Origin: an uncultured bacterium
Lineage (GTDB): Bacteria; Actinomycetota; Acidimicrobiia; Spongiisociales; ZC4RG35
NCBI GenBank assembly: GCA_963792365.1
Contig: CAWBVW010000008.1
Coordinates: 132,243 to 196,242 of the forward strand
Length of the DNA: 64,000 nt
Direction: 5' to 3'
Shown: positions 1-23,969 of the stretch, piece by piece
Position numbering within the stretch: the stretch's first letter is position 1
How the letters are laid out: the number at the start of each line of letters is the position of its first letter
Notes under the pieces: generated by a model
What the model saw: only the letters and a program-made list of their open reading frames with translations
Databases searched by the model: none
What the model was told of the DNA's origin: nothing
Program-made: the position numbers and the translations under genes

Positions 1-1140
1 CCGCCACCATGATCAGGAACAGCCACAGCGGGGTCGACCAGCCGGTCCAAGGCCAGTGAAGGGCTTCAGCAACCACCTCGACGATCTCATCGGCGAGCAC
101 CATGCCCTCGTCGCTGTTCGTCATCACCACCACTGCGTCTCCCAGCTCCGGAAGCGCCCGGAACGAACCTTCGAAGCCCTCGTTGCGGCCTTCGTGCCCG
201 ATGGCGATGCCGCCCTCCTCTTCCCACACCCCGAGCCCAACCGAGCGACCCGGCGTGAGCATCGTGCGGGCCGTGTCGCCATCGATCACCACTCCCGTAC
301 CGTCCCGATATGACCGCATCATGTCGATGACGATCTCGGCGTACTCGGTGGGCGTAGCCCAAAGAGACGCCGCCGCCGTGGCGGCGTAGTCGTGCCAACC
401 AGCGGCGATCGGTACCCCATCCGACCGATAGCCAAACGCCGCCTCCGGCGTGCTGTCCGGATCGAGCAGTTGGAACGTTGCCGTGCCCAACCCGAGTGGC
501 TCGAGCACGTGCATGTCGGCGAGGTCGGCGAAATCCACTCCAGTTGCGTCCTCGACGGCGAGCTGAGCAACCATGAACCCGCCGTTCGAGTACACATACG
601 CGGAGCCCGGCTGGACGATCAGGGAAACCGGTGGCGAGGTGACGCGCTCCCCTGCGTCCAGAACGGCCGGTAGTGGGGGCAACTCCGTCCCCTGGGGGTA
701 GCCGGGCAGCCCGAACTCGTTGAAGCCACCGGTGTGGCTCAGCAGCATGGCGAGGGTGATCACATCCCCCGGCCGGGTCGGAGGCAGTTCCCACCTGGTC
801 AGCATGGAACCGACGTCGGCGTCCAGATCGATCACGCCCTCCTCGGCCAGATCGGCGATGACCATCGCGCTGACCGGCTTCGACAGAGAGGCCGCCTGGA
901 AGAGCGTGCGTTCGTCCACATCTCGGCCCGGCCGGGCTTCCCCGTAGCCAGCAGCCCACACCACCTCGAAGTCGGACACGACGGCGATGCCGACACCGGG
1001 GATCGCATACCGTTCCATGGCATCGATGACCGCCGTTTCGACCTTCGCGGTGTCGAACTCGGCCCCTCCCGACCCGCTGGCAAACACGAACCCACCGGCC
1101 GCAAGGGCGGCCACCGCGAGTACCCAGCGGCCGTATCGCA
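1..1140 (-). CDS. Beta-lactamase-related serine hydrolase (S12/class C-like), secreted; partial, 3' end beyond window start
   Basis: Reverse-complement translation from GTG at 1140 gives VRYGRWVLAVAALAAGG... (signal peptide), an S-x-x-K motif (SLSK) and LLSHTGG. The frame is continuous to position 1. The ORF track does not list it because it uses a GTG start and runs off the edge. Confidence 0.7.
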
Positions 1141-1786
1141 CGAAGCAATACTACCCGCGCGCCCTCAGCCGGAACCCGTCGTCGGTGGCCCCCCGGTCGG
1201 CAAGTGGATCGCCGAGACCACCAGGAACGCCAACGAGTCGAAGCTCCGCCCAGAAGGACACCCACCACCAGGCTCATCGCCGACGACGTCAAGGCGCTCG
1301 TCGCCAGCCTGCAAGATATCACCGCCCCACTGGCCGCAGCGGACCCGGCAGAAGCGGCCAAGGTCTATCCGGAGATGGGGATCGACATCACCTACCACCA
1401 ACACGGCCGGGTCGTCGTCGAATCCTGGGCCGCGTGTCGTCGAGTCTGGTGTTGGAGAAGCGTTCGAGATGTGGACGACACGGAGTCCAGCGCTGGTGAC
1501 ATCGTTCTCGATTGCATAGGGCGATCGCTGCCGTGTGAAGGTGTTTGGGGTGCTGCCACTATCCGGACAAACCGGACGGATGGCTCCACCTGATGGCACC
1601 GGGAATGGAGAGACGACCACCGGTGCCGCGCCCTTCATCACCGACGGTGCCCGAGGGACGCCGCGATCCGGGGAAGCCCCCGACTCGATCGCCGATACGA
1701 AGAGGGGATGAGTCCTGGAGATCATCAAGCTACAAGGGGACCCATGTGAGACCGCTACGCTGGTCACTGGTTCGCAGGGAGTCCCC

Positions 1787-3220
1787 ATGCAACGACGAGT
1801 CTTGCTCCTCAGCATTCTCATGGTACTCGCGGCCTGTGCGGGTTCGGGCACCGCGAACACGACCGACCCGCCGTCGTCAACGACCACCACCATGGACCCC
1901 GCGTCGAGCTTGGTGCCGGAGCCAGCAGGGGTGGCTGGCATCTGGCTCGCCGAGCTTCGCGGCGTCGTACTTCAGTTCCGGATTGATCTGGGACCGGATC
2001 AGGATCTGACGGGCGTTTTCGACAGCCCGCTGGAGGGGGTCACGGATCTGCCGACCACGATCATTGCGGACGGAGCCAACGTGACCATTGAGATTCCGGT
2101 TGCTGCTGTCGTGTTCGAGGCCACGGTAGAAACCGACTCGCTTTCGGGCATTTGGAAACAGGCCGGCGCCGAGGTGCCCGTGTCCTTCACCCGGCAAGTA
2201 GAGCCCTTCACACTCGTCCGAACTCAGGAGCCGCAGCCTCCCTTCCCGTACGAATCCGTTGAGGTGCGGTTCGATAACGGCCCGATCACATTGGGCGGCA
2301 CTCTCGTGATTCCCGAGGGAGCTGGACCGTTCCCGGTGGCGGTGTTGATCAGCGGTTCCGGGCAACAGGATCGAGACGAGTCGATCATGGGTCACAAGCC
2401 GTTCCTGGTGCTAGCGGACTGGCTCGCACGCCGGGGCGTCGCAACCCTGCGCTACGACGATCGCGGTGTAGGCGATTCGGGGGGTAATCCGATTGGAGCC
2501 ACCTCAGCCGACTTTGCTGAAGACGCGTTGGCCGCCGTCGTCTTCCTCGCCGATGATGAGCGGTTCTCGGCCATCGGCTTGATCGGGCACAGCGAAGGGG
2601 GACTCATCGCACCCATGGTGGCAGCCGAGGCCGACGTGGCTTTCACGGTGCTGCTCGCCGGACCCGGTGTGCCCGGGTCCGAAGTGCTGGCACAGCAAAC
2701 CGAAGACTTGATGAGCGCCGAGGGCGCTTCTCGTAGTGCTGTCGACTGGCGGGTCGGGTGGGGAACGGAGGTCATTGCGCTCGCCGCATCGGATTTGGAC
2801 TCAGCCGAAGTCGCCGCCGAGATCCGTGGGGTCCTGGAAGCAGCCGCGGATGATGTCCCGCCGGGGCTGGAACAAATGGTGAACGACGCTGCAATCGAGG
2901 AGACGGTGGCCGCATTCACCGATCCGTGGATGCGCTACTTCCTGGCCTATAACCCACAGTCCGCACTCGAGGCGCTGACTATTCCGGTGCTGGCGCTGAT
3001 CGGCGATCTCGACCTGCAGGTGTCGGCAGAGCTCAATATCCCGGCGCTCGAAGCGGCGCTCGCCGGCAACTCAGACGCCACCGTCATCGAACTCGACGGA
3101 CTCAACCATCTGTTCCAGACAGCTACCACTGGTGCCGTATCCGAGTACGGGCAGATCGAAGAGACGTTCGCCCCGGAAGCGATGGAGCTGGTGTCAGACT
3201 GGATCCTGGAGCGCTTCTGA
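1787..3220 (+). CDS. Alpha/beta hydrolase family lipoprotein (dienelactone-hydrolase/S9-like fold)
   Basis: 477-aa ORF. N-terminus has a lipobox (LAACAGSG), a Thr/Pro-rich linker and a GHSEGG nucleophile elbow (GxSxG). Confidence 0.75.
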   Translation: MQRRVLLLSILMVLAACAGSGTANTTDPPSSTTTTMDPASSLVPEPAGVAGIWLAELRGVVLQFRIDLGPDQDLTGVFDSPLEGVTDLPTTIIADGANVTIEIPVAAVVFEATVETDSLSGIWKQAGAEVPVSFTRQVEPFTLVRTQEPQPPFPYESVEVRFDNGPITLGGTLVIPEGAGPFPVAVLISGSGQQDRDESIMGHKPFLVLADWLARRGVATLRYDDRGVGDSGGNPIGATSADFAEDALAAVVFLADDERFSAIGLIGHSEGGLIAPMVAAEADVAFTVLLAGPGVPGSEVLAQQTEDLMSAEGASRSAVDWRVGWGTEVIALAASDLDSAEVAAEIRGVLEAAADDVPPGLEQMVNDAAIEETVAAFTDPWMRYFLAYNPQSALEALTIPVLALIGDLDLQVSAELNIPALEAALAGNSDATVIELDGLNHLFQTATTGAVSEYGQIEETFAPEAMELVSDWILERF

Positions 3221-3704
3221 CAGCGGGCGACGAGATGACCCTCGGACTTCGACGATTCACTTGCCGACACGGCTGCTGGGCATATCCAAGACACGCCAAC
3301 CAGTCCAGGTCATCAACTGTGCCTGAAGGGGTTGAGGGAGAAACGGAACGAAACGCGTCGGTCGGGTTGGGTGTACAGCGAGCTGGAGTTGGCCTGGTCG
3401 AGGTGCCTGGATTTCGGCCGAGCGAGCGCAATGGTGCGCTCCTTCTCAGGTGACACGACCCTCGCTTGAGCTGAGGTGATCTAGCCCGCTCGACATGTGC
3501 CGTTCGGGGACACTGCGGCGAACTGATCGATATGGCGCGAGATCAGGGCGATCTGGCACGGCAGGGTGCAGTGGCGCAATCGTTCGACTGCAGGTGCAGC
3601 GACGCTCACCAGGGCTCCCGCTGAGGGAAACCGGGTACCGTCGTCCCTTATGTCGCCGTCTACGGTTTTCGGAGTCCGCGAGGTCTGCCGAACATCTTTC
3701 CGGC

Positions 3705-3929
3705 TCAGGATCCTTTGCGCGCTGCGCGCCAACGAGCAGCGAATGCAATCGCCAAGCCCACGACCACGAGGATCGCCGTCGGCGGCACCCAATTGATCAG
3801 GGTGTCCGAAGCGGAATGGCTGGCAGAGTCGATGCGGACGAAGTTGGCGACGGAAGCGACAATTATCACCGCGGCGAGGACCCATCCGAACAGGCCGAGG
3901 CCACGGCCGGTCGGTCGGTCGCACCACAT
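3705..3929 (-). CDS. Small 2-TM membrane protein (hypothetical)
   Basis: 74 aa with two hydrophobic helices. Codon third positions are strongly G/C-biased. Sits downstream of the arginase-family gene on the same strand. Confidence 0.4.
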   Translation of the reverse strand: MWCDRPTGRGLGLFGWVLAAVIIVASVANFVRIDSASHSASDTLINWVPPTAILVVVGLAIAFAARWRAARKGS

Positions 3930-3974
3930 TGTCGTCGGACATCGAAGTCGTTCTCCTTCTGCGTGTCACGCCGC

Positions 3975-4934
3975 CTAACGCCGGGTCGGTGGGACCTGGC
4001 ACTCCTGAGAGTCGCCGGTCCGGGCGACCTTGTCGTACAACATGTCGTCCTGATGCGCGGTGACCAGGTTCTCGAGGTAGGCGACGATCAGTTCGGCGTT
4101 GGTTCCCTGGTCGAGGTCGGGGTTGTAGATCACCACCGAGGCGCCAACGCAGCCACCCTTCCCCACCGCAGCGGCGGTGAGTTCATGAAGCTGGGCCCAG
4201 GTGAGGCCGCCGCTTTGGGGATAGTCAACCGCCGGGAGGGCGTCGGTCGACAGCACGTCCAGGTCGACGTGCAGCCACCAATGACGGGAGCGTTGTTGCA
4301 GCTTCGCGACGGCGCTGGCAGCGATCTGTTCCAGATCACCGTTGGCGAGATCGTGGCCCGAGACCATGCGGACTCGAGGTGCAATGGATTCGACCGACGC
4401 ACTCGACAGTTCCGCGTGGTCTCTTGGGCCGAGGACCACGACCTGATCCGGGTCAACCAGAGGCATGTGCTGGTCAAGAGCTGCGGGTGCATGGTGTAAC
4501 CCGACCGCGATCCCCAGCTCGCAATCAGCCGCGTCCCCGGTCAGGCTCTCGTGCGGTGGCCAGGCGTCTTCGTGTCCATCGACAAACAGCAAGCCAACGG
4601 TGTCCTCTGCAAGCCGCATCCCAAGCAGCACACCGAGCAGCACAGCACAATCGCCGCCCACAACCAACGGCCACCACCCTTCCGCGACCGTCTCGGCTGT
4701 GACGGCAGCGAGGTTCTCTACCATCGAGACCAGCGACCCTTCGGCCAGCAACCCGCTAGGGCCTCGGACCGGGTCGGCACGCTCAAACGAGACCTGGTGA
4801 CCGATCACATCAGCGCGTGTGCGAAGGGCCTCATACATGCCGGCGCCGATCAGCGCAGCAGGCATACGGGCTACACCGTCGGCTGTTCCCGACGAATTGA
4901 AGGGAACCTCAACGACCGTGACACGACCAACCAC
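3975..4934 (-). CDS. Arginase/agmatinase/formiminoglutamase-family ureohydrolase
   Basis: 319 aa. Mn-binding motifs typical of the arginase fold (GGDCAV, DCELGIAVG, HVDLDVLSTDALPAVDY). Confidence 0.75.
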   Translation of the reverse strand: MVGRVTVVEVPFNSSGTADGVARMPAALIGAGMYEALRTRADVIGHQVSFERADPVRGPSGLLAEGSLVSMVENLAAVTAETVAEGWWPLVVGGDCAVLLGVLLGMRLAEDTVGLLFVDGHEDAWPPHESLTGDAADCELGIAVGLHHAPAALDQHMPLVDPDQVVVLGPRDHAELSSASVESIAPRVRMVSGHDLANGDLEQIAASAVAKLQQRSRHWWLHVDLDVLSTDALPAVDYPQSGGLTWAQLHELTAAAVGKGGCVGASVVIYNPDLDQGTNAELIVAYLENLVTAHQDDMLYDKVARTGDSQECQVPPTRR

Positions 4935-5020
4935 ACGACCAGCCTAAAGGCCCTTCGGAGCGCAGGACTCGCCGCTGCACTCTCAGTAGTCGTCGCCCGG
5001 CGAGTCTTCCGCACGCATTC

Positions 5021-5232
5021 GTGCGGCTCGGCGCTATTCGGCCATGGGAGCGTTCTGGCCTGATATCTGTTGATCGGGGGCCGGGGCCATCTTGGGCGGC
5101 CGGCTGTCGGGCGACTTGCGATCCTCAGGGCGGGGTCGACTGGTTGGACTCGGCCGAGTGGGGATCCCCGTGATCACCGACCCTCGGCGTGCCAAGCTTC
5201 GTGAAGGTCGTTGTCGATTTGGGCTGGACGTG
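5021..5232. repeat. ~212-bp intergenic repeat, copy A (upstream of yciI-like/sigma operon)
   Basis: Near-identical to 6957-7168, with only a few mismatches. Starts at cggctcggcgctattcggccatgggagcgttctggcc. Confidence 0.9.
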
Positions 5233-5282
5233 CGCGTCATAGGTGCGTCGGCGGCGGTAGCCGGCCATGGAAGAAGGAGATG

Positions 5283-5639
5283 GATGTGAAGTATTTCGTT
5301 CTGCTCGCCGGATACGGTGAGATGCCTTCGTGGGATGAGCTGTCTGCTGAGGAGCAGGAGGCGGGGATGGCCAAGCACGTCGCTTTCGATGAGGCGTGCG
5401 CAGCCAGGCCAGGAGTGGAGATTGTGGGCGGGGAGGCGTTGGGGGACGGCTCGATGGCCACGACACTGCGCACCCGGGATGGTGAGATGACGGTCACCGA
5501 TGGCCCGTTCGCCGAGGCAGCCGAGCAGATCGGAGGGTATTACGTTGTCGATGCGCCCGACCTCGACACGTTGATCGAGCTGTGCCGGATCCTGCCTGCC
5601 TATGACATCGACATCCGACCGGTCCTTGACGCCCCCTGA
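5283..5639 (+). CDS. YciI-like (DGPF domain) protein
   Basis: MDVKYFVLLAGYGEM...DGPFAEAAEQIGGYYVVDAPDLDTLIELC. A gaaggag RBS lies before the ATG at 5283. The ORF-track start at 5211 falls inside the repeat. Confidence 0.8.
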   Translation, partial: DVKYFVLLAGYGEMPSWDELSAEEQEAGMAKHVAFDEACAARPGVEIVGGEALGDGSMATTLRTRDGEMTVTDGPFAEAAEQIGGYYVVDAPDLDTLIELCRILPAYDIDIRPVLDAP

Positions 5640-6873
5640 CCGGGTCATTGAGGAGGTCTACCGGGCCGAGTGGGGCCGGTTGTTGTCGCTGCTGGTGGCG
5701 CGGACTCGGCGCCTCGACCTGGTGGAGGATGCTCTGGGTGAGGCTTTCGTTCGGGCGGCGGATCGTTGGCCGGATGAAGGGGTGCCGACCAATCCCGCTG
5801 GTTGGTTGTACACCACCGCCTACCGGCAGGTTGTTGGGCGGCTCAGGGCCGAGGGTGTCGCCGGGCGCAAGGCGCCGCTGCTTGCGGTCCGGCCCGATTG
5901 GGCGCCGTCCGACGATGCACAGGGAGAGCTCGCCGACGATCGGCTGCACCTCATTCTGTTGTGCTGTCATCCGGCGCTCCCCAAGGAATCACGCTCGGCG
6001 CTTGCGCTCCGCCTCGTCCTAGGGACACCGACTGAGCAGATCGCCCGCCTGTTTCTCGTCCCGACCGCAACGATGGCGGCGCGCCTGACACGAGCGAAGA
6101 AGAAGATCGCGGGTGCGGGCATCCCGCTTGGTGCTCCACTCGAGGACGAGCTCAGATCACGGCTCGACGAGGTGTGCCGCACCACTTACCTGGCGTTCAC
6201 CGCCGGGTACACCCCAGGTACAGGGCCCGACCTGTTGCGGGCCGACCTGGCGGGAGAAGCCGTACGGCTCGCCGCCGTGCTGGCTGACCTTCTGCCCGAC
6301 GCTGCTCAGGTTCGAGCACTGCTGGCGTTGTTGCTGCTGCAGCACTCGAGGCGTGACGCCCGGCAACGCCACGGCCACATGGTGACCCTCGCCGACCAAG
6401 ACCGCTCGCTGTGGCATCACCACGAGATACGAGCCGGGCTCACCCTCATTGGCGGCCTCGAACCAGGCGAGGGATACGCCGAAGAACTCCGACTTCAAGC
6501 CCTCATCGCAGCCGAACACGCGCGGGCACCTTCCGCTGCCGAGACGGACTGGACAGCGATCGCCGGCCACTACGCCGTCCTCGAAGCACGAACCGGATCG
6601 GCGATCGTGCGACTCAATCGCGCCGTCGCAGTCGCCGAGGCCCAGGGCCCCCGGGCCGGCCTCGATCTCCTCCAGGGACTAGACGAAGCCCTTTCTGGCA
6701 ATCACCGAGTCGCCGCTGTTCGCGCCGAATTCGCTCGACGAGTAGGCGACATCGACCTGGCGCGGGTCTCCTACGGCGAAGCGATCGAGCTCTGCACCAA
6801 CGAAGTTGAGAGAGCCCACATCCGCAACCGGCTCGATGAGCTCCCAGCCGTTGATCGACAAGCACGCATGTGA
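5602..6873 (+). CDS. ECF sigma factor with long C-terminal TPR-like extension (ECF42-like)
   Basis: 423 aa. N-terminal sigma-70 regions 2 and 4 (VIEEVYRAEWGRLLSLLVAR...), then a ~250-aa C-terminal extension. Overlaps the preceding yciI-like gene by 38 bp, the classic DGPF-ECF42 pairing. Start may be slightly downstream. Confidence 0.8.
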   Translation: MTSTSDRSLTPPDRVIEEVYRAEWGRLLSLLVARTRRLDLVEDALGEAFVRAADRWPDEGVPTNPAGWLYTTAYRQVVGRLRAEGVAGRKAPLLAVRPDWAPSDDAQGELADDRLHLILLCCHPALPKESRSALALRLVLGTPTEQIARLFLVPTATMAARLTRAKKKIAGAGIPLGAPLEDELRSRLDEVCRTTYLAFTAGYTPGTGPDLLRADLAGEAVRLAAVLADLLPDAAQVRALLALLLLQHSRRDARQRHGHMVTLADQDRSLWHHHEIRAGLTLIGGLEPGEGYAEELRLQALIAAEHARAPSAAETDWTAIAGHYAVLEARTGSAIVRLNRAVAVAEAQGPRAGLDLLQGLDEALSGNHRVAAVRAEFARRVGDIDLARVSYGEAIELCTNEVERAHIRNRLDELPAVDRQARM

Positions 6874-6956
6874 GCACCCGGGCGGAGTGCGAACGTGCAA
6901 GCGTCGCCACGCTGCGTAGCTCTCGCCATCGACCCCAGGCAAGAGCGTATGTGTCG

Positions 6957-7168
6957 GCTCGGCGCTATTCGGCCATGGGAGCGTTCTGGCCTGATATCTG
7001 TTGATCGGGGGCCGGGACCATCTTGGGCGGCCGGCTGTCGGGCGACTTGCGATCCTCAGGGCGGGGTCGACTGGTTGGACTCGGCCGAGTGGGGATCCCC
7101 GTGATCACCGACCCTCGGCGTGCCAGGCTTCGTGATGGTCGTTGTCGATTTGGGCTGAACGTGCACTG
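6957..7168. repeat. ~212-bp intergenic repeat, copy B (downstream of sigma gene)
   Basis: Near-identical direct repeat of 5021-5232. Confidence 0.9.
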
Positions 7169-7469
7169 AAGCCTTCCAACGGGACGTTCTACGGCACATG
7201 GCCAGCGAGGCCTGACGGCAGACGAGTCGACTCACCAACCACGGACAGCGACCAGAGCACCCGAACGACCAGAGCTTGAAGTGCCGCTCGGGGAGACTTG
7301 GCGAAGTGCTCGTTATCGCGCCGTATTCGGTGATCGGTGCGTCCCTTGGTTGTCGAGATCGATCGCTGTAAGCACCGGAACGTCGACCAAGCGGCAGGCG
7401 CGACGAAGTATCGGCAAGCGTCGATCTTGCGTGACTACAGGCATCAAGCCCCTCGGACGGCTGGGTATA

Positions 7470-8405
7470 GTGTCGGTGCCCTCAGCGTCTGGATATCGTG
7501 TGCTGAAGTCAAAGAACCGTTCCGGTCGTGTCTCCTGGGAGGGGTACATCACGGTCAATGGTGTGGCGCACTTCTATAGGACGGTTGGTCACGGAGAGCC
7601 GTTTGTTGTCCTTCATGGCGGTCCTGGCATGTGGCACGATGAGCTGTTCCCCTACTTCGACGACTTGGCTCGAGACCATCAGGTGATCTTCTACGACCAG
7701 CGTGGAAATGGCAGATCCCTCATGCCCGAGATCACGAAGGAGAACTTCACCGTTGACTGGTTGGTGTCAGACCTCGACGAACTTCGCAACGCCTGGGGGT
7801 TCGATCGGCTCGGCATCATCGGGCACTCGTGGGGCGGACTGCTCGGAATGTACTACGCGACCAGACACCCAAAGCGGGTCAAACGTCTGGTCCTTGTCGA
7901 TGCAGCCCCGATCAATACGGATCTCCTCATACAGTCCTACCGTGCGCTGGTCGATCGGTTCCCTACTGGCGAATGGGAACGTCTCGAGGCGATGTACGGA
8001 AGCGATGCATACCAGGCGGGTGACCCAGCGTGCCTCAACGCAGCGATGAGATTGTCCGAGGGACCCACGTTCCACGTCCCTGCTGCACGGGAGGAGTACT
8101 TCGACCTCGTGGCCTTCGACGCCGTCACGGCAAGAAACATGGTCGCAATAGCCGAACCGGCACAGATCATCAAGCAGCGTGTGACTGTTCAAGACGATCT
8201 GAGCAAGATCGATTGCCCGACCCTGATCGTGCACGGTGCCGAGGACTTCATCGTGCCGGAAGCCCCCAGGTTGGCTCAAGAACTCATTCCCGGAGCCGCA
8301 CTCGCCGTCATACCTGACAGCGGTCACTACCCGTTCATCGAACAGCCGGAAGCGTTCACCCAGGCACTGCGGTCCTTCATCGAAACCGCCGCAGCCAGCG
8401 ACTGA
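7470..8405 (+). CDS. Alpha/beta hydrolase, proline-iminopeptidase-like
   Basis: HGGPGMWHDE, GHSWGG nucleophile elbow, C-terminal HYPFIEQPE. The ORF-track start at 7281 gives an implausible Arg-rich N-terminus. In-frame GTGs at 7470, 7476 and 7500 are more likely starts. Confidence 0.7.
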   Translation: MSVPSASGYRVLKSKNRSGRVSWEGYITVNGVAHFYRTVGHGEPFVVLHGGPGMWHDELFPYFDDLARDHQVIFYDQRGNGRSLMPEITKENFTVDWLVSDLDELRNAWGFDRLGIIGHSWGGLLGMYYATRHPKRVKRLVLVDAAPINTDLLIQSYRALVDRFPTGEWERLEAMYGSDAYQAGDPACLNAAMRLSEGPTFHVPAAREEYFDLVAFDAVTARNMVAIAEPAQIIKQRVTVQDDLSKIDCPTLIVHGAEDFIVPEAPRLAQELIPGAALAVIPDSGHYPFIEQPEAFTQALRSFIETAAASD

Positions 8406-8583
8406 CCACCCTCGATCGGCACGACCTCGCATAGGGGGCGATCGAGGACAACAACGGTCACCGTGCGCGTTCGGTAGCCCGCCCGCAGTCTTGCCCCTAT
8501 GTGCTATCCGGGAGTCGGTGTGTTATCGCGCGGGATCTTTCGATCGGGTTCACACGACCAACCGTTACATGTAACATCGGGTC

Positions 8584-8805
8584 ATGGCCACACCACGCGA
8601 AGATCCCTCCGTCACGCGACGAGTCCGCAGCTACCGACAGCGGATGCGCGCGCAAGGCATGCGCCCGATCCAGATGTGGGTCGCCGACGTTCGCGCTCCC
8701 GGCTTCCCGGCAGAAGCACACCGCCAATCGGCAGCGGTTGCCGGCAGCGACCACGCCGCCGACGATCAAGCGTTCATCGATGCAGTGAGCCTCGACGAAG
8801 CGTGA
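8584..8805 (+). CDS. Type II antitoxin, DUF3018-like
   Basis: 73 aa: RVRSYRQRMRAQGMRPIQMWVADVRAPGFPAEAHRQSAAVAGS...DQAFIDAVS. Its stop overlaps the start of the PemK-like gene (GTGA). Confidence 0.6.
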   Translation: MATPREDPSVTRRVRSYRQRMRAQGMRPIQMWVADVRAPGFPAEAHRQSAAVAGSDHAADDQAFIDAVSLDEA

Positions 8806-9134
8806 GACGCGCCGAGATCTGGACGGCTGCCGCAGGCAGCGGCTACACCGGCAAGCCGCGCCCGGTGGTGATCATCCAAGACGACCGCTTCGATGCGACA
8901 GGTTCGGTGACCGTGTGCGCCTTCACCACCGACCCGACCGAGGCACCGCTGATTCGACTGCCCATCGTGCCCGACGATCAGAACGGCCTGCGAATGCCCT
9001 GCAGCGTGATGGTCGACAAGATCACCACAGTGCCACGCACAAAGCTTGGCGAGCGAGTCGGACGTCTCGCCGACGAAGACATGGTCAGGCTGGGCCGAGC
9101 CATCGTGGTCTTCTTCGGACTGGCAGGCAGCTGA
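8802..9134 (+). CDS. PemK/MazF-family toxin (endoribonuclease)
   Basis: GTG at 8802 is in frame with ORF 8499-9134. VRRAEIWTAAAGSGYTGKPRPVVIIQDDRF...MPCSVMVDKITTVPRTKL matches the PemK fold signature. Confidence 0.7.
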   Translation: MRRAEIWTAAAGSGYTGKPRPVVIIQDDRFDATGSVTVCAFTTDPTEAPLIRLPIVPDDQNGLRMPCSVMVDKITTVPRTKLGERVGRLADEDMVRLGRAIVVFFGLAGS

Positions 9135-9159
9135 CTGACCCGATCATGGATGTGCCGCT

Positions 9160-9260
9160 CGGCGCTATTCACCGTGGCGAGCGTTGTGGCTCGGTATCAG
9201 ATGATCGGCGTGGCGGGCGGTACGTGGTCCTGCCTGCGCATGTGGCGACATGCGCGGGTG
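9160..9260. repeat. Diverged partial copy C of the 212-bp repeat
   Basis: Shares an identical 14-mer (gctcggcgctattc), then roughly 65% identity over the next 60 nt to copies A and B. Lies between convergent gene ends. Confidence 0.5.
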
Positions 9261-9881
9261 CTACGTGTGGGACTCGCAGGGAAGCGACTCGTAGTCAATG
9301 CGAAGTAGGCCGCCCCATTCGTCGAAATGCGCTGTGTTGGCGAAACTCACGGGAACGGTTCGGTACCACTGCGTGCCCTCGCCCTGACCCTCGAAGACCT
9401 CGAAGTGAAGATGCGGCACCGCAGTGCCCGTTGTTCCGACAAGCCCGATCACCTGACCTGTGTCGACCTCGTCGCCGACCTCGACCAGGACACCGTCTTC
9501 GCTCATGTGGAGATAGAGCGCCATCGTTCCGTCCTCGTGCAGCACGAAGACCCCGTTCTCGTGACCACCGGTACGGTCGTTGTCGCTGTACTGATCCCTG
9601 ATCTCGGTGACCGCACCACTGCGTGCGGCGGTGATCTCGGCACCGAACGGCATGGAGAAGTCGATCGCAAACCGGCCGCGATGCGTGCCGGTGTCACCCC
9701 ATGTCTGGCTTACCGTTGCGGTCTCTCCGATCGGATAGGGAAGGCAGTACGGAGACGTCGCCGGATCGGGGAAACGCATGAACTCCAGATCCGGGAGGCT
9801 CGATTCCGACGAGCCGGAGCCGCAGCCACTCCCAACGACCACGAGAGCCATGAAGAGGAGGGCGACGAAACGCCGAGCCAT
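9261..9881 (-). CDS. M23 family metallopeptidase lipoprotein (LytM-like)
   Basis: MARRFVALLFMALVVVGSGC lipobox, HENGVFVLHEDG and HLHFEV motifs. Confidence 0.75.
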   Translation of the reverse strand: MARRFVALLFMALVVVGSGCGSGSSESSLPDLEFMRFPDPATSPYCLPYPIGETATVSQTWGDTGTHRGRFAIDFSMPFGAEITAARSGAVTEIRDQYSDNDRTGGHENGVFVLHEDGTMALYLHMSEDGVLVEVGDEVDTGQVIGLVGTTGTAVPHLHFEVFEGQGEGTQWYRTVPVSFANTAHFDEWGGLLRIDYESLPCESHT

Positions 9882-10366
9882 GGGAGGCACCTCCTGACGG
9901 CCCATGGTCCTGCGGCAGTGGTGGTCGCTCTAGAGGCCAATGGCTCTCGGCCACTATGACCGTCGGCCACGGACGGCACTGGGTTCGAGCCGAGCCGCGG
10001 TCTCGATGCGTGTGCCATGCGTGGCGAGCGGGCCGACCGCCCACAACGCTCTCGTACGGTCGTCGCCGCTGGAACAGGGATGCACATGATCGTATGGGAC
10101 AGCCCGGATCTCGTCGTGAGCGAGATCGCCGCCCCCGGCGACGCGGCGCGTTGACTTGACCACCTGCGACATCTTCGCGGCGCTGTCGGTTGAGTATCCG
10201 AGAGAGCACGGCATCGCCATCAGATGCGTCGCAGAGCCGACGGCGTCACCCCGACCTGCTCGCGAACAACTTGCCTGTCGTGATCGATCACCTCGACCGA
10301 GGAGCGATCGCGACAGCGTCGCCGCGCCACATCCGCGTTCGGGAATGCCGTTGATTACCGTTGATT

Positions 10367-10433
10367 GGCGGGGTTGGGGCCAACTCTGAAGGCTCATAAC
10401 CCGAAGGTCGTAGGTTCAATCCTACCCCCGCTA
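10367..10433 (+). tRNA. tRNA-Met(CAT)-like 67-nt sequence; 3' ~45 nt tRNA-like, 5' half non-canonical (possible pseudo-tRNA / att remnant)
   Basis: ggctCATaacccgaaggtcgtaggttcaatcctacccccgcta closely matches the anticodon-loop-to-3'-end part of bacterial initiator tRNA-Met. The 5' ggcgggg pairs with 3' ccccgct. The D-arm and anticodon stem do not pair, and the T-loop is 6 nt. Confidence 0.4.
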
Positions 10434-10440
10434 CGAGAAA

Positions 10441-10470
10441 GCCCTGGTCAGAAAGCTCTCTGACCAGGGC
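10441..10470 (+). terminator. Stem-loop (12-bp perfect stem) immediately 3' of tRNA-like sequence
   Basis: gccctggtcaga-aagc-tctgaccagggc. No U-tract, as is common in high-GC actinobacteria. Confidence 0.5.
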
Positions 10471-10625
10471 TCCTACCGGCTGAGCCGGTCTCTGACAAAC
10501 CGCCTGATTCTGTTCTGCCCGAGGACCTTCGGTGGCTGACTCGGAACGGCGACCCACCACTCTTCGTGGTCCGGTAGGCGGGCCCCTCCCTGGTCAGCCC
10601 GGTGGTTCGAATCGAACCCATGTGT

Positions 10626-11111
10626 CTACCGTCCCATCTGGATCTGCGACCGGCTGGGTTCGACGAGGCCTGGCATCGACGGTGAGGGCGTGCGGGGCCA
10701 AGTCCAGGCGGAGCGCAGGATGAAGGCCATGAGCAGCACTTCGAGTCCGATGGAGAGGCCGTAGAAGTAGGTCCAGGACTCCCCGACCGCGTTGAACACT
10801 GAGACGGGGACGTACAGCGATGCCACGACGAGGTTCGCGGCGCGGTTCGCACGGGCGGGCAGCGTCATGGAGAGCATCACCATCAGGCTCGGGATCGCTA
10901 TGAGCGCTAGGAAGCCGGTCAACAACGTCTGGCTGATGTCGAACTCCCAGACGACGCCAGCCATGATGTCGTCGACGACGCCGGGCTTGTACAGGTGGAA
11001 GTAGTCGACGTAGATGTAGAGGAACATGAAGCTGGTCCAGGCTGCGGCGAGCTTCGCTTTGACCGGAACCGGCGGATCGTGCAGGGCTGTGGTGGGGGTG
11101 TCGGTTGGCAT
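10626..11111 (-). CDS. Membrane protein (hypothetical, ~4 TM)
   Basis: The ggagag RBS precedes the MPTDTPTT start (11111). Hydrophobic helices throughout. Divergent from the sensor kinase. Confidence 0.55.
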   Translation of the reverse strand: MPTDTPTTALHDPPVPVKAKLAAAWTSFMFLYIYVDYFHLYKPGVVDDIMAGVVWEFDISQTLLTGFLALIAIPSLMVMLSMTLPARANRAANLVVASLYVPVSVFNAVGESWTYFYGLSIGLEVLLMAFILRSAWTWPRTPSPSMPGLVEPSRSQIQMGR

Positions 11112-11269
11112 GGTCTCTCCGTTCTTCATTCGGGTTGTTGACGTCACCATGACGGGATCTCTGGTCGGTGCCATCGGTCTGACGGCTTGATCTGCTCGGC
11201 CCGTGGGATGGGTTGTTTCTCAGCCTTTCGGCTGAGCCGCGACCTGCGCCGGATCTCTACGCTGGGCTG

Positions 11270-12442
11270 ATGTTGACGAACAGCCTTCGGGCGTTCTGGA
11301 ACGAACCTCGCCCTGTGCAGCCACCCGTCCGGGTGTGGCGGGACTGGGCGCTTGTCAGCGTGGCCGCGTCCGCGACGGTCGTCGAGGTGCTGCTGCGTGA
11401 GGATCGGGCCTGGCTGCCGGCCGCGGGCATGGTCAGCGCCGTGGTCGCACTCAGCCTGCTGTGGCGGCGGACCCATCCGCTGTCCGCGGTGGCCGTCGCG
11501 TTCGGGACGCTCATCGTCTTCGACCTCGCACGTATCGTCGTGATCGACACGACGCTGCTGTTCAGCATCGCGGCCGCGCTCGTGCTGCCCTACGCGCTGT
11601 TCCGTTGGGGGTCGGGCCGTGAGACCGTCATCGGGCTCGGGATCATCCTGGTGTGGTTGGGTGTCACCCATGTCGCGGATCCGACCAGGGTGTACGACGT
11701 GGTGGCTGCGTACGGGTTCTTCCTGTTCTCTGCGGCGCTGGGTGCCTCCATTCGCTTCCGCGCCACCACCCGCGTGCGCGAGATCGAGCAGGCCGAACTC
11801 CGCCAACGTCACGAGCTCGCCCGCGACCTGCACGACACCGTGGGCCATCACGTGTCGGGGATCGTCATCCAGGCCCAGGCCGGACGGGCCATGGCGGCCT
11901 CTCACCCTGACCGTGCCCTGGCAGTGCTTGCGACCATCGAGGGTGCCGCGGCACGGGCGCTGGAGGAGATGCGCGCCATCGTCGGTGTCCTGCGCGATGG
12001 GGCCGAGCCGGACCTTGCCCCACAGCCCGACATCACCAGTATCGATCGGCTCGCCCGCACCGGTGGTCCGCTCCGCATCGATGTGAACCAGTCAGGCACG
12101 CTGGACGACCTCCCCGCGGCGGTCAGCGTCGCGCTGTACCGAATCGCCCAGGAAGCGCTCACCAATGCGATGCGCCACGCCCGCAACGCCACCCGGGTGA
12201 GTATCGAGGTTTCAGGTGATCTTGAACAGGTGCGCCTGACCGTCCGCGACGACGGGGCCCCGGTGTCCGCAAGCCGCCCGCTGTCCGGGTGGGGTCTGAT
12301 CGGGATGCGCGAGCGGACCTCGCTGTTCGGCGGAACCCTCCTTGCCGGCCCGGGTCCCGACCGTGGCTGGGTCGTCGAGGCGACGCTTCCCAAACGGGAT
12401 GCTGCCACCGGCCGATCACCGGTCCCGGAACGGTCGGCGTAG
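11270..12442 (+). CDS. Two-component sensor histidine kinase (HisKA_3 / NarL-partner type)
   Basis: TM helices, then ELARDLHDTVGHHVSGIVIQAQAG (H-box) and EALTNAMRHA (HATPase). An alternative TTG start at 11213 is the ORF-track call. Confidence 0.7.
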   Translation: MLTNSLRAFWNEPRPVQPPVRVWRDWALVSVAASATVVEVLLREDRAWLPAAGMVSAVVALSLLWRRTHPLSAVAVAFGTLIVFDLARIVVIDTTLLFSIAAALVLPYALFRWGSGRETVIGLGIILVWLGVTHVADPTRVYDVVAAYGFFLFSAALGASIRFRATTRVREIEQAELRQRHELARDLHDTVGHHVSGIVIQAQAGRAMAASHPDRALAVLATIEGAAARALEEMRAIVGVLRDGAEPDLAPQPDITSIDRLARTGGPLRIDVNQSGTLDDLPAAVSVALYRIAQEALTNAMRHARNATRVSIEVSGDLEQVRLTVRDDGAPVSASRPLSGWGLIGMRERTSLFGGTLLAGPGPDRGWVVEATLPKRDAATGRSPVPERSA

Positions 12443-12444
12443 GC

Positions 12445-13101
12445 GTGGCCATTCGCGTACTCATCGCCGACGACCAGGAGATCGTCCGGGCCGGCCTGGC
12501 CATGATCCTCGAAGCACAACCCGACATCCAGGTCGTCGGTACCGCCGCCGACGGCCTCCACGCCGTCGCGCTCGCCCGCGAGCTACGGCCCGACGTGTGC
12601 CTGTTCGACATCCGCATGCCACACCTCGACGGGATCGAGGCCACCCGGCAGCTCGCCGGCCCCGATGTCCCGGACCCGCTCGCGGTCGTCATCATCACGA
12701 CCTTCGACCTCGACGAGTACGTCCACGGCGCGTTGAAGGCCGGCGCCCACGGGTTCCTGCTCAAGGATGCGGGACCTGCCCTCCTGCTCCAGGCCATCCA
12801 CGCCGCCGCGCGAGGCGATGCCCTGATCGCCCCGAACATCACCGTGCGACTCCTTGCCAGCTTCGCTGAATCGCACGCAGCGGCCCCGCCTGCGCAACCG
12901 ATCGAACCGCTCACCGCCCGCGAGGAGGAACTCCTGCTCACGGTCGCCCGTGGCCGCACCAACAGCGAGATCGCGGAGGAGCTCTACATCAGCATCGGCA
13001 CTGTCAAGACCCACCTCGCCGCACTGATGCGCAAACTCAACGCACGCAATCGCGTCGAAGTGGCGATGTGGGCCTACGAGACCGGCCGCATGAGATCCTG
13101 A
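12445..13101 (+). CDS. LuxR/NarL-family response regulator
   Basis: GTG at 12445, 3 nt after the kinase stop. REC domain (VLIADDQEIVRAGL...D...) plus C-terminal LuxR HTH (EIAEELYISIGTVKTHL). Confidence 0.8.
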   Translation: MAIRVLIADDQEIVRAGLAMILEAQPDIQVVGTAADGLHAVALARELRPDVCLFDIRMPHLDGIEATRQLAGPDVPDPLAVVIITTFDLDEYVHGALKAGAHGFLLKDAGPALLLQAIHAAARGDALIAPNITVRLLASFAESHAAAPPAQPIEPLTAREEELLLTVARGRTNSEIAEELYISIGTVKTHLAALMRKLNARNRVEVAMWAYETGRMRS

Positions 13102-13243
13102 CAGAATCTGCGCGGGGCCGGGTGCCGCTTCGTCACCGTTTCCTCAGTGGCGGAGCTGTTCATGCTGTCGAGGCGGGCTGCCGTGGCTACACGACCTTCT
13201 CGCGCTGGGTTCAGACCAGACGGCGGGCCCGATGAGCTGATGA

Positions 13244-13885
13244 TCAGTGCGTTGCGTACGCGGAGCGCAGTGCGGCGCTGAGCCACCGGGTGTCCCCGTC
13301 GATCGTGAGGGCGCTCGCCTCAGGGGAGACCTCGCCTGCGAACACGGCGGCGAGGCTTGGCGCCGAAGGGGCGTGAATTCTCAAGTCGCCGTTCGTGCGT
13401 GACTCAGTGATGTCGGCGCGGCTCCCCACAACCAGCACGTGTAGGCGGAGGTCCGGCTCGATGCTGATTTCGATTTGCAGCGGTTCGGGCGCGGGATGCC
13501 GTAGCGCGAGCCATCGGATCGGGAAGAGGGGCCAATCGGGGTCGGCCGGCTCATCGCTTCGGGACGGATCGACCAGCAGCGTTGCTCCCCAACGCAGCAA
13601 TTCGAGGACCGCCGGTTCGATGGCGGCACCGAACTCGGTGAGTTCATAGACCGCTGTGGCGATCGGGGGTGCCATGGGGGTCTTGGTGACGAGCCCATCT
13701 GCTTCCAGTCGTTTCAGCCTCTCGGCCAGCAAGTTCGTGGAGATCGCCGGCAACGAGCGCAGGAGGTCGTTGTATCGCTTCGGTCCGGTGAGGAGCTGCC
13801 GTATGACGAGCAGGGTCCAGCGGTCGCCGACGAGTTCGAGTGCTCGGGCAAGTCCGCACAGTCGCTCGTAGCTCCGCTGAGGCAT
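13244..13885 (-). CDS. HxlR-family winged-helix transcriptional regulator with C-terminal extension
   Basis: CGLARALELVGDRWTLLVIRQLLTGPKRYNDLLRSLPAISTNLLAERLKRLEADGLV. Confidence 0.7.
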   Translation of the reverse strand: MPQRSYERLCGLARALELVGDRWTLLVIRQLLTGPKRYNDLLRSLPAISTNLLAERLKRLEADGLVTKTPMAPPIATAVYELTEFGAAIEPAVLELLRWGATLLVDPSRSDEPADPDWPLFPIRWLALRHPAPEPLQIEISIEPDLRLHVLVVGSRADITESRTNGDLRIHAPSAPSLAAVFAGEVSPEASALTIDGDTRWLSAALRSAYATH

Positions 13886-14004
13886 TCCTCATCCTATCGC
13901 ACGCTTCAAATTGTGAACGTACTACTTGATATTCTGAAGTGAAGGCGGTACCGTCCCCACCAGGGAACGTCTCAGATCAGGACACAACCGGAGGCAGGGA
14001 GCAG

Positions 14005-14478: not shown

Positions 14479-14817
14479 TCGAGACTCGGTCTCCTCCGCT
14501 CACGATCGGGCCGGGAGTCTTCGCCGGGTTCCCTGAGGGAGTTGGCCTTCTGGCGCTCGTGGGTGAGCAGACCAAAGAGAGTTCGCCGCCGGTCATGCCC
14601 GCTGGGACGAAACGATCCGCTGACCGGCCGAGGCCCTCATCGTGATCTCGGCTGCCTTCTTCGGGCGCAGGTTTCGCCGACCATCGAAGCCGTGCCGAAG
14701 ACGAACGGTTCGCCCATGTCGATCGAAGTGCTGGCATGCAGACTCACCGGTCGAGACGCAGACTCGGCGAAGGAAACGTAGACCCTCTCGGTTCCTTTCC
14801 GGGTGCTCCGCTCCTGC

Positions 14818-16724: not shown

Positions 16725-16745
16725 GCACTTATACTGGTTAAGTGC
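16725..16745. promoter_or_regulatory. Inverted repeat GCACTTA-N7-TAAGTGC overlapping start of HTH-kinase gene (putative operator)
   Basis: Seen directly. 7-bp arms with a 7-bp spacer, centred on the GTG start at 16742. Confidence 0.4.
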
Positions 16746-23948: not shown

Positions 23949-23969
23949 GAGACTGGTCCCGTCAGAAGC

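What the first reader, a model, noticed from the sequence alone, without database searches (positions are those of the whole stretch)
10348..10470. tRNA-Met 3'-half remnant with adjacent tandem 9-mer and hairpin: candidate integration-site scar
The 3' ~45 nt (anticodon loop CTCATAA through the T-arm to the acceptor CCCCGCTA) closely matches bacterial initiator tRNA-Met. The 5' half cannot form D or anticodon stems. A tandem ccgttgatt/accgttgatt lies just upstream. A perfect 12-bp-stem hairpin follows. Integrases that target the 3' end of a tRNA leave exactly this kind of partial duplicate (attR). That would place an island to the left, covering the M23 peptidase, the toxin-antitoxin pair, the repeats and the ECF42 module. 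Alternatively it is a decayed tRNA gene.
Basis: partly seen in the sequence, partly recalled or inferred. Interest (0 to 1): 0.55.

Follow-up and report, generated by a model that had tools for sequence, protein, structure and literature searches.

The report
Island-boundary copy of initiator tRNA
This is not a tRNA gene but the leftover partial copy of the genome's initiator tRNA-Met gene, marking the far end of about 17 kb of DNA inserted next to that gene by site-specific integrases; this is a common and well-understood kind of scar.

Summary
Window 10367-10433 resembles a tRNA, but no tool calls it one: ARAGORN finds nothing, and the Rfam tRNA model scores 24.7 bits against a cut-off of 29. 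[quoted passage not shown] The 5' part is scrambled, the T-loop lacks one A, and a 13-bp hairpin follows.

A second assembly of the same strain (L082, 99.96% identical over window 1-10471) extends 8 kb to the left. It holds the intact tRNA-fMet 16.8 kb upstream, next to the conserved gene UPF0182. An intact tyrosine integrase lies right beside it, and a third, exact 50-nt partial copy lies in between.

The locus is therefore a tandem array:
- the intact tRNA
- a 4.5-kb integrase element, also found as a discrete unit at 87% identity in another metagenome
- the middle copy
- a 12.2-kb decayed island with a truncated integrase, two MazEF pairs, ECF42 and M23
- the window copy

Distant relatives and 59 IMG/VR viral contigs show the same kind of 3'-half copy.

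Two things remain open: no empty site was found, and the right flank (DUF6326, kinase, regulator) may itself be old island DNA. This is an ordinary new member of a known kind.

The parts
10348..10366 (+). Tandem 9-mer CCGTTGATT-A-CCGTTGATT with a 10-bp period, on the island side of the junction. It is a candidate binding site for an integrase arm domain or an accessory protein; this is inferred, not shown.
   Evidence: These are the only two exact copies in the window. One-mismatch copies are not enriched (12 found, 10.2 expected). Short tandem 9-mers occur 9 times in the window against about 1.8 in simulations.
10367..10390 (+). Island-side arm next to the core: GGCGGGGTTGGGGCCAACTCTGAA. It begins with an acceptor-strand-like GGCGGGG but otherwise does not resemble the tRNA's 5' half.
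   Evidence: 15/30 identities to tRNA positions 1-30, not above random 24-mers (p about 0.16). The Rfam alignment shows paired acceptor strands, a short D arm and three broken anticodon-stem pairs.
10391..10433 (+). Partial duplicate of the initiator tRNA-Met gene. It runs from the last two pairs of the anticodon stem, through the anticodon loop CTCATAA, the variable region and the T arm, to the discriminator base. This is the attR-type core.
   Evidence: 41/44 identical to the intact tRNA of the same strain, L082 1726-1800. The T-stem differs by a compensating pair of changes (GTAGG/CCTAC against GCAGG/CCTGC), and the T-loop lacks one A. It is the only tRNA-fMet-like match in the window (nhmmer E 3.6e-11, next best E 2).
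10434..10478 (.). Downstream part of the repeat. It contains a perfect 13-bp hairpin (10440-10452 / 10459-10471, loop AAGCTC), followed by CTCCTACCG. It is probably the terminator of the tRNA, and also of the convergent DUF6326 gene.
   Evidence: Fold -26.1 kcal/mol, z -4.9. It is 91% identical to the sequence that follows the intact tRNA in L082. The same hairpin type follows tRNA-fMet or its partial copies in 15 metagenome contigs.
1..10390 (.). Right-hand 10.4 kb of island B, which is 12.2 kb in all and starts 1.8 kb left of the window. Its genes in the window are:
- alpha/beta hydrolase (about 1820-3220 +)
- arginase-family gene (3975-4934 -)
- YCII (about 5280-5639 +)
- ECF42 sigma factor (5602-6873 +)
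- a second alpha/beta hydrolase (about 7500-8405 +)
- MazE-like / MazF pair (8584-9134 +)
- M23 peptidase (9261-9905 -)
   Evidence: Pfam assignments come; gene calls for L082 come. A 57-75-nt repeat family is confined to this segment. Close hydrolase relatives sit in other mobile contexts. The truncated integrase of this island lies just left of the window (L082 7406 to about 8110).
10626..11174 (-). DUF6326 membrane protein, the first gene on the far side of the junction. It converges on the hairpin. A HisKA_3 kinase (11213-12442) and a LuxR-type regulator (to 13101) follow.
   Evidence: The same three-gene module lies next to a homologue of the IntA integrase in L017. A 92%-identical DUF6326 gene lies next to tRNA-Leu and an integrase fragment in L088. 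This flank may therefore also be acquired DNA.

Best explanation
The feature is an attR-type junction. It is the partial duplicate of the 3' portion of the initiator tRNA-Met gene that is left at the far end of DNA integrated into that gene by a tyrosine integrase.

Layout (shown). In this strain the single tRNA-fMet gene sits just downstream of the conserved gene UPF0182, 16.8 kb to the left of the feature and about 6.4 kb outside the window. Reading rightwards, the order is:
- the intact tRNA
- a hairpin
- element A, 4.5 kb, holding an intact integrase (IntA), an OmpR-type regulator, a kinase and an acidic repeat protein
- an exact 50-nt copy of the tRNA 3' part
- island B, 12.2 kb, holding a MazEF-like pair, an integrase cut short by a beta-lactamase-like gene, hydrolases, an arginase-family gene, YCII-ECF42, a second MazEF pair and the M23 peptidase
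- the window copy

Mechanism (inferred from how such integrases are known to work).
- Strand exchange took place in or next to the anticodon loop. Every copy here and in relatives starts to match the tRNA at that point.
- Each incoming element supplied a new 3' half, and its own terminator, to keep the essential tRNA intact. The previous 3' half was pushed to the far end of the inserted DNA.
- Island B came first. It lost its integrase and so became an integrase-less element that still has both att sites.
- Element A then integrated into the rebuilt tRNA. This is tandem accretion.
- The window copy is the oldest displaced 3' half. It keeps a T-stem variant that still pairs (GTAGG/CCTAC). It has since lost one T-loop base because nothing selects for it any more.
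- The hairpin is the terminator that travelled with that 3' half.
- The tandem 9-mer and the GGCGGGG stretch belong to island B's own arm of the attachment site.
For: Same strain. L082 positions 8182-18653 match window 1-10471 at 99.96%.

The three copies.
- ARAGORN finds tRNA-Met(CAT) at L082 1726-1800.
- The integrase lies at 1848-3029 (-). It hits Phage_integrase at 93 bits, plus SAM-like and weak arm-binding domains.
- The core CTCATAACCCGAAGG occurs at exactly three places, all on the + strand: L082 1758, 6350 and 18575.
- The intact gene and the middle copy share an exact 50 nt.
- The intact gene and the window copy share 81/89 nt, running through the hairpin.

One-sided divergence.
- Identity is 41/44 on the 3' side of the junction and 15/30 on the 5' side.
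- The T-stem differences compensate each other. T-stems also differ by compensating changes between lineages: GTGGG/CCCAC in L084 and GCGGG/CCCGC in L085.

Element A is a discrete unit.
- It is 87% identical over 4,608 nt in a JGI contig (L092), where it is again bounded by tRNA 3'-half copies.
- IntA homologues at 52-90% identity lie next to a tRNA-fMet 3' half plus the same hairpin in several metagenome contigs, and at 71% in L017.

Island B looks like a decayed element.
- It carries a truncated integrase (Pfam profile positions 2-120 of 172, 51.7 bits).
- It carries two toxin-antitoxin pairs.
- A private repeat family is absent from the other 53 kb of the window.
- Its hydrolase appears at 86-91% nucleotide identity beside IS110 transposases, or beside a tRNA-Ala plus integrase, in other genomes.

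The pattern recurs.
- The UPF0182 to tRNA-fMet linkage is kept in relatives that share only 68% and 58% UPF0182 identity.
- L085 has an exact partial copy 5.7 kb downstream of its tRNA, across a defence island.
- L039 has an intact tRNA plus a partial copy. L017 has three partial copies.
- 59 of 80 IMG/VR contigs that carry this 3' half have it without the 5' half.

Literature. Tandem accretion and integrase-less elements that keep their att sites are described in PMC5704250. Anticodon-loop-to-3'-end attachment sites are described in bioRxiv 10.1101/2020.11.02.365908.
Against: - No empty site was found. The closest available relatives are too distant or not syntenic, and the first metagenome pattern found nothing.
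- GC content does not differ: UPF0182 0.636, element A 0.636, island B 0.644, right flank 0.658.
- Island B has no working integrase and was not found as a unit elsewhere.
- The hairpin after the window copy is of the type that sits in the integrase-side arm of IntA-family elements. The window copy could therefore be an internal junction rather than the terminal one.
- The flank after the middle copy resembles the flank after L085's partial copy. Which flank is ancestral is not settled.
- The GGCGGGG stretch that pairs with the acceptor strand is unexpected for an unrelated arm. My rough estimate of its chance probability is about 0.01.
- Excision was not observed.
Confidence: 0.85

Rival explanations
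1. The window copy is an internal junction, not the terminal scar. Under this reading the DNA to its right (hairpin, DUF6326, kinase, regulator) is what remains of a third, older IntA-family element that lost its integrase and its own far-end copy. Islands would then lie on both sides.
For: - The hairpin and the CTACCG tail after the window copy match the integrase-side arm of IntA-family elements, and the similarity stops about where the integrase stop codon would be.
- In L017 an IntA homologue (71%) is followed directly by the same regulator, kinase and DUF6326 module, at 72%, 62% and 70% protein identity.
- A 92%-identical DUF6326 gene sits beside tRNA-Leu and an integrase fragment in L088.
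- DUF6326 also follows a tRNA-fMet partial copy in L039.
Against: - The window holds no integrase remnant (tblastn).
- It holds no further tRNA-fMet-like copy in the 53 kb to the right.
- No mobile-element genes were found among the ORFs tested there.
- The module is inverted relative to L017.
- The same hairpin follows intact tRNA-fMet genes with no integrase within the roughly 600 nt of contig available (L100). A related GAAAG..GGTCAGA motif follows tRNA-fMet in distant actinobacteria (L084, L039). The hairpin may therefore simply be the native terminator, copied into the element's attachment site.
Confidence: 0.3
2. It is a decayed second tRNA-fMet gene, a pseudogene formed by ordinary mutation and unrelated to integration.
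For: - The Rfam tRNA model aligns over the full length, 1-71, and the acceptor stem can pair.
- The sequence has its own terminator-like hairpin.
- Single-base T-loop loss is typical of decay.
Against: - Divergence is sharply one-sided, 93% against 50%, with the break at the anticodon loop.
- The T-stem changes compensate each other.
- Three same-strand copies bracket integrase-bearing and integrase-remnant DNA.
- Identical architecture occurs in L085, L039, L017, L092 and many viral contigs.
Confidence: 0.05
3. It is a functional tRNA-like RNA, for example a regulatory or decoy RNA expressed from the island.
For: Acceptor and T stems can form, and the fold is -27.4 kcal/mol.
Against: - The fold is not significantly better than shuffles (z -1.8, 13 of 200).
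- No promoter-like site was found.
- No Rfam family reaches its threshold.
- No other partial copy in related loci keeps the 5' acceptor-like strand.
Confidence: 0.02

Closest known systems
[quoted passage not shown] Classic actinobacterial examples, from my own knowledge, are pSAM2 in tRNA-Pro and mycobacteriophage L5 in tRNA-Gly. The sublocation classes are summarised in bioRxiv 10.1101/2020.11.02.365908.
   Same: - There is an intact tRNA at one end with the integrase beside it.
- A direct repeat of the tRNA's 3' part lies at the other end.
- The repeat starts at the anticodon stem-loop.
- The element supplies the new 3' half of the tRNA.
   Different: - The target is the initiator tRNA-Met of an uncultured Acidimicrobiia lineage.
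- The repeat extends beyond the tRNA through its terminator hairpin, about 89 nt in all.
- Integration and excision were not demonstrated.
Tandem accretion of an integrase-bearing element with an integrase-less element that keeps both att sites (CIME-IME/ICE composites in streptococci and Streptomyces, reviewed in PMC5704250; tandem ssrA islands of Dehalococcoides, PMC3146451).
   Same: - Three same-orientation att copies delimit two adjacent segments.
- The segment nearest the tRNA has an intact integrase.
- The distal segment has only a truncated integrase of a different subfamily.
   Different: - Mobilisation of the distal segment by the neighbour's integrase is untested.
- The distal att copy has diverged: three differences within the tRNA part.
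- The cargo is sensory and regulatory genes plus toxin-antitoxin pairs, not conjugation or mobilisation genes.
tRNA genes as integration hot spots with variable islands (for example Klebsiella asparagine tDNAs, PMC4891358).
   Same: The same tRNA locus, next to UPF0182, carries different islands in different lineages: a defence island in L085 and the A+B array here.
   Different: It is seen here across very distant relatives (58-68% UPF0182 identity), not across strains of one species.

Membership tests
tRNA-targeting integrase island (attL / attR pair) | An intact target tRNA gene at one end of the inserted DNA | tested here: met
   tRNA-Met(CAT) lies at L082 1726-1800 (+), on a contig 99.96% identical to window 1-10471.
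tRNA-targeting integrase island (attL / attR pair) | A same-orientation direct repeat of part of the tRNA at the other end | tested here: met
   81/89 nt between L082 1756-1844 and window 10391-10478. A middle copy shares an exact 50 nt.
tRNA-targeting integrase island (attL / attR pair) | A tyrosine (or serine) integrase gene next to an att site | tested here: met
   IntA, 393 aa, lies at L082 1848-3029 (-), 48 nt from the tRNA end, and hits Phage_integrase at 93 bits. Island B has only a truncated integrase.
tRNA-targeting integrase island (attL / attR pair) | An empty site in related genomes, or an excised or circular form | tested here: inconclusive
   - No close relative was found. UPF0182 relatives reach at most 68% identity and DUF6326 relatives in the species collection at most about 83%.
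- Hydrolase and DUF6326 relatives are not syntenic.
- The first metagenome pattern found nothing.
- Element A alone was found as a discrete unit elsewhere (L092).
tRNA-targeting integrase island (attL / attR pair) | Base composition different from the flanks (typical of islands, not strictly defining) | tested here: not met
   GC is 0.636 (element A), 0.644 (island B), 0.636 (UPF0182) and 0.654-0.658 (right flank). The sliding-window profile shows no step at the junction.
Attachment site of the anticodon-loop type | The identity block starts at the anticodon stem-loop and runs to the tRNA's 3' end | tested here: met
   The copies begin at TCGGG|CTCATAA (middle copy) and GG|CTCATAA (window copy). 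Copies in L085, L017, L095, L098 and L101 begin at or within a few bases of CTCATAA.
Attachment site of the anticodon-loop type | Strand exchange within the anticodon loop | not testable with these tools
   This needs in vitro or in vivo recombination mapping.
Tandem accretion (integrase-less element with both att sites, next to an integrase-bearing element) | Three att copies in one orientation delimit two adjacent segments, and only one segment has a complete integrase | tested here: met
   The cores lie at L082 1758, 6350 and 18575. IntA is complete, and island B's integrase covers profile positions 2-120 of 172 only.
Tandem accretion (integrase-less element with both att sites, next to an integrase-bearing element) | The integrase-less segment can be excised or moved by the neighbour's integrase | not testable with these tools
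   No read-level or experimental data are available. The only hint is that the L082 contig ends inside the hairpin after the window copy.
Genuine tRNA gene | A cloverleaf accepted by tRNA finders or by the Rfam model at its curated threshold | tested here: not met
   ARAGORN finds no gene at default, -ps or 80% thresholds. RF00005 scores 24.7 bits, below the cut-off of 29, with D-arm, anticodon-stem and T-loop defects.

The most novel reading that the evidence does not exclude
The UPF0182-linked initiator tRNA may be a clade-wide accretion hot spot in Acidimicrobiia and other Actinomycetota. At this hot spot, small integrase elements would repeatedly swap in new 3' halves, and hence new T-stem variants, of the cell's initiator tRNA. 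They would also shuttle sensory modules: ECF42 and ECF sigma factors, two-component systems and DUF6326-kinase-regulator. On this reading the window copy is an internal junction of a three-element array, and the integrase-less 12-kb island B can still be moved by IntA through the degenerate copy.
Probability: 0.25. Interest if true: 0.35.

Novelty: new member of a known kind. Interest (0 to 1): 0.2.

Why it matters
For annotation:
- The sequence should be labelled as an att-site remnant or pseudo-tRNA, not as a tRNA gene.
- Window 1-10390, plus 6.4 kb to its left, should be flagged as horizontally acquired DNA. This affects how the ECF42 module, the MazEF pairs, the M23 peptidase and the hydrolases are interpreted, and how MAG bins are read: one assembly breaks exactly at this repeat.

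For biology, it adds an example from a poorly studied, uncultured Acidimicrobiia lineage of two things. One is tandem island accretion at the initiator tRNA. The other is an integrase family whose attachment site carries both the tRNA 3' half and its terminator. Nothing here challenges current understanding.

Tried and rejected
- Exact-protein look-ups of the M23, DUF6326 (182-aa ORF), P0001 and P0241 proteins found nothing on record. The source contig itself (469,006 nt) could therefore not be fetched. The left extension came from the sister assembly L082.
- The genome-contig scan with DUF6326 returned 80 loci. The best reached only about 81-83% identity and none was syntenic.
- UPF0182 homologues reach at most 68% identity, too distant for an empty-site test.
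- Hydrolase relatives (79-94%) and the 91% DUF6326 relative sit in unrelated contexts.
- The first metagenome pattern, tRNA end plus exact hairpin, gave 0 hits.
- GC content and skew show no boundary.
- The tandem 9-mer has no further copies near either end of island B and is not enriched at one mismatch. Its role as a protein-binding site stays a guess.
- The simple consensus scans found no promoter or terminator.
- I rejected the idea that the 5' part is a diverged tRNA 5' half. Its alignment score is no better than random, and only the first 8 nt stand out.
- I considered that the one-base T-loop loss might be a scar of the roughly 75-nt T-loop insertion seen in L092-type copies. There is no evidence for this.

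Full report
**1. What is in the sequence**

Window 10348-10478 reads CCGTTGATT-A-CCGTTGATT, then GGCGGGGTTGGGGCCAACTCTGAAGG, CTCATAA, CCCGAAGGTCGTAGGTTCAATCCTACCCCCGCTA, then CGAGAA, a 13-bp perfect hairpin (AGCCCTGGTCAGA / AAGCTC / TCTGACCAGGGCT) and CCTACCG.

ARAGORN finds no tRNA in the whole 64-kb window, and none at this site even with thresholds lowered to 80%. No Rfam family reaches its gathering score.

With permissive settings the Rfam tRNA model aligns end to end at 10367-10433, but scores 24.7 bits against a cut-off of 29 (E 0.018). The acceptor strands pair. The D arm has 9 nt instead of 13, three anticodon-stem pairs are broken, and the T-loop is one base short.

The hairpin folds at -26.1 kcal/mol (z -4.9). 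It has no T-run, and the simple scans find no promoter or terminator here.

The 9-mer occurs exactly twice in the window, both times here. Short tandem 9-mers are fairly common in this DNA, though: 9 against about 1.8 expected.

**2. Neighbourhood**

The genes to the left are:
- an arginase-family gene (-)
- YCII
- an ECF42-type sigma factor (Sigma70_r2/r4 plus DUF6596)
- an alpha/beta hydrolase
- a MazE-like / MazF pair
- an M23 peptidase (-)

A 720-bp gene-free stretch then holds the feature. To the right lie DUF6326 (-), a HisKA_3 kinase and a LuxR-type regulator. No integrase is encoded in the window (tblastn; Pfam on the tested ORFs).

**3. Finding the rest of the locus**

The hydrolase at 1787-3220 has a 100%-identical product on a 146-kb ENA contig. 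The stretch fetched from it, L082, matches window 1-10471 at 99.96% and extends 8.2 kb further left. That contig ends inside the hairpin after the feature.

Reading left to right, L082 holds:
- UPF0182 (ends at 1674)
- an intact tRNA-Met(CAT) at 1726-1800
- a hairpin
- a complete tyrosine integrase on the minus strand at 1848-3029, here called IntA (Phage_integrase 93 bits, SAM-like domain, weak arm-binding domain)
- an OmpR-type regulator, a kinase and an acidic repeat protein
- a second partial tRNA copy at about 6337-6394
- a MazE-like / PemK pair
- an ORF whose first 240 residues are a tyrosine recombinase matching only positions 2-120 of the 172-position Pfam profile, cut off by a convergent beta-lactamase-like gene
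- the genes seen in the window, up to the window copy at L082 18549-18615

The 15-nt core CTCATAACCCGAAGG occurs at exactly three places in L082: 1758, 6350 and 18575, all on the + strand.

**4. Anatomy of the three copies**

The intact gene and the middle copy share an exact 50 nt, TCGGGCTCATAA...CCCCGCTACGA. After that their flanks differ.

The intact gene and the window copy share 81 of 89 nt. The match runs from GGCTCATAA through the tRNA end, through the hairpin (the stems are identical, the loops differ), and to CTACCG.

Within the tRNA part the window copy differs in three ways: C to T and G to A at paired T-stem positions, which keeps the pairing, and the loss of one A from the T-loop. 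Identity is 41/44 to the right of the junction. It is 15/30 to the left, which is no better than random 24-mers (p about 0.16). Uniform decay of a tRNA gene would not give such a step. A recombination junction at the anticodon loop would.

T-stems also differ by compensating changes between lineages: GCAGG/CCTGC, GTAGG/CCTAC, GTGGG/CCCAC and GCGGG/CCCGC. The window copy's T arm is therefore a once-functional variant, not random damage.

**5. The two segments**

Element A (L082 1801-6336, 4.5 kb) is a discrete unit:
- A JGI contig (L092) holds it at 87% identity over 4,608 nt, again bounded on both sides by tRNA-fMet 3'-half copies.
- A degenerate pattern for 'tRNA end plus hairpin' found 15 metagenome contigs. 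In these the hairpin follows either an intact tRNA-fMet or a partial copy. In nine of them the hairpin is followed by an IntA homologue (52-90% identity) on the opposite strand.
- L017 has the same arrangement with a 71% homologue.

Island B (L082 6395-18574, 12.2 kb) looks like a decayed element:
- It has a truncated integrase of another subfamily.
- It has two toxin-antitoxin pairs.
- It has a 57-75-nt intergenic repeat family with six clear copies, all inside B and none in the other 53 kb of the window or in element A.
- Its hydrolase appears at 86-91% nucleotide identity beside IS110 transposases, or beside tRNA-Ala plus an integrase, in other genomes.

GC content does not separate any of these segments (0.636-0.658).

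**6. Recurrence elsewhere**

UPF0182 followed by tRNA-fMet is conserved in the nearest available relatives, which share 68% and 58% UPF0182 identity.
- In the 3.48-Mb genome behind L085, an exact partial copy starting at CTCATAA lies 5.7 kb downstream, across an HsdR / DUF5343 / HEPN island.
- L039 (an Aeromicrobium MAG) has an intact tRNA-fMet and a 38-nt exact partial copy 4 kb apart. The DNA between holds an ECF-type sigma factor and no integrase.
- L017 has three partial copies.
- In IMG/VR, 82 stretches carry this 3' half. Of the 80 examined, 59 lack the tRNA's 5' half.

The kind of feature is therefore common.

**7. Mechanism**

The layout is shown. The following steps are inferred from established knowledge of tyrosine integrases that target tRNA genes, and from the accretion model (for PMC5704250; for attachment-site sublocations):
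- Island B integrated first, by exchange in or next to the anticodon loop. This displaced the original 3' half and terminator to its far end, which is the window copy.
- Island B then lost its integrase.
- Element A integrated afterwards into the rebuilt tRNA, which created the middle copy. The exact identity of the intact gene and the middle copy, against three differences in the window copy, fits this order.
- IntA resembles phage-type integrases at 30-36% identity.

**8. What is not settled**

(a) No empty site or excision product was found.

(b) The hairpin after the window copy is of the type found in the integrase-side arm of IntA-family elements. In addition, L017's IntA homologue is followed by the same regulator, kinase and DUF6326 module that lies to the right of the window copy. 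A 92%-identical DUF6326 gene also sits by tRNA-Leu and an integrase fragment in L088. The right flank may therefore be an older island that lost its integrase.

Against this, the window shows no integrase remnant and no further tRNA-like copy. The same hairpin also follows intact tRNAs with no integrase in the sequence available (L100). A related motif follows tRNA-fMet in distant actinobacteria. This would fit a native terminator that the element family copied.

(c) The flank after the middle copy resembles the flank after L085's partial copy.

(d) The GGCGGGG stretch that can pair with the acceptor strand is unexplained. None of the other partial copies examined has it.

**9. Verdict**

The sequence is an integration-site scar of attR type, at the distal end of island DNA lying to the left. 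The island is a two-part tandem array of 16.8 kb whose intact tRNA and integrase lie outside the window. It is a new instance of a well-known kind and of low general interest. Its practical use is for annotating the pseudo-tRNA and for recognising window 1-10390 as acquired DNA.

Noticed in passing
window 5012-5087, 6946-7019, 7275-7346, 8482-8558, 9143-9218 (weak 3495-3546); L082 6493-6567: A dispersed 57-75-nt intergenic repeat family lies entirely on the + strand. Its consensus is roughly GTGCCGCTCGGCGCTATTCGG..GAGCGTT.T.GC..GTATC..TGATCGG. It is confined to island B and absent from the other 53 kb of the window and from element A. It might be a shared promoter or operator, or a miniature mobile repeat.
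   Followed up: partly
window 5024-5233 and 6955-7164: Two 210-nt direct repeats, 98% identical, bracket the YCII-ECF42 sigma-factor pair. That module may have been inserted or duplicated as a cassette.
   Followed up: no
L082 7406 to about 8110 (+), 70-770 nt left of the window start: A truncated tyrosine recombinase (Pfam Phage_integrase positions 2-120 of 172, 51.7 bits) lacks the catalytic C-terminal part. A convergent beta-lactamase-like gene overlaps it.
   Followed up: yes
L082 18653 (equivalent to window 10471): The 146-kb sister contig ends exactly inside the hairpin after the window copy. This could reflect strain-level structural variation at this junction or an assembly break at the repeat.
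   Followed up: no
L092 (oriented 4503-4625 and 9175-9300); also L090, L093, L103: In these metagenome contigs the tRNA-fMet 3'-half copies that flank the element-A homologue carry an insertion of about 72-76 nt in the T-loop. It folds into a long hairpin, and the two copies differ by compensating changes in the stem. No Rfam family matches it.
   Followed up: partly
L088 9162-10429; L077 1561-2557; L039 165-1509; L017 5655-9600: DUF6326 genes repeatedly lie beside tRNA genes, tRNA partial copies or integrase fragments: tRNA-Leu plus an integrase fragment in L088, tRNA-Arg in L077, and tRNA-fMet copies in L039 and L017. In L088 the 92% nucleotide identity to the window is limited to the DUF6326 gene alone. 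This suggests the gene moves as cargo.
   Followed up: partly
L085 13786-19585: A distant Acidimicrobiia genome has a 5.7-kb island between its tRNA-fMet and an exact partial copy. The island holds an HsdR-like helicase, DUF5343 and a HEPN protein, and an AbiE-type pair lies just beyond. The same tRNA is therefore a defence-island site there.
   Followed up: partly
L091 and L094 (around the pattern match): Other decayed tRNA-fMet partial copies also have T-loop deletions (GGTTCATCCCG). Like the window copy, this shows that displaced copies lose T-loop bases.
   Followed up: no
window 22135-24419 (-): A second HisKA_3 kinase and LuxR-type regulator pair lies next to a small DUF6069 membrane protein. 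It parallels the DUF6326-kinase-regulator module at 10626-13101.
   Followed up: no
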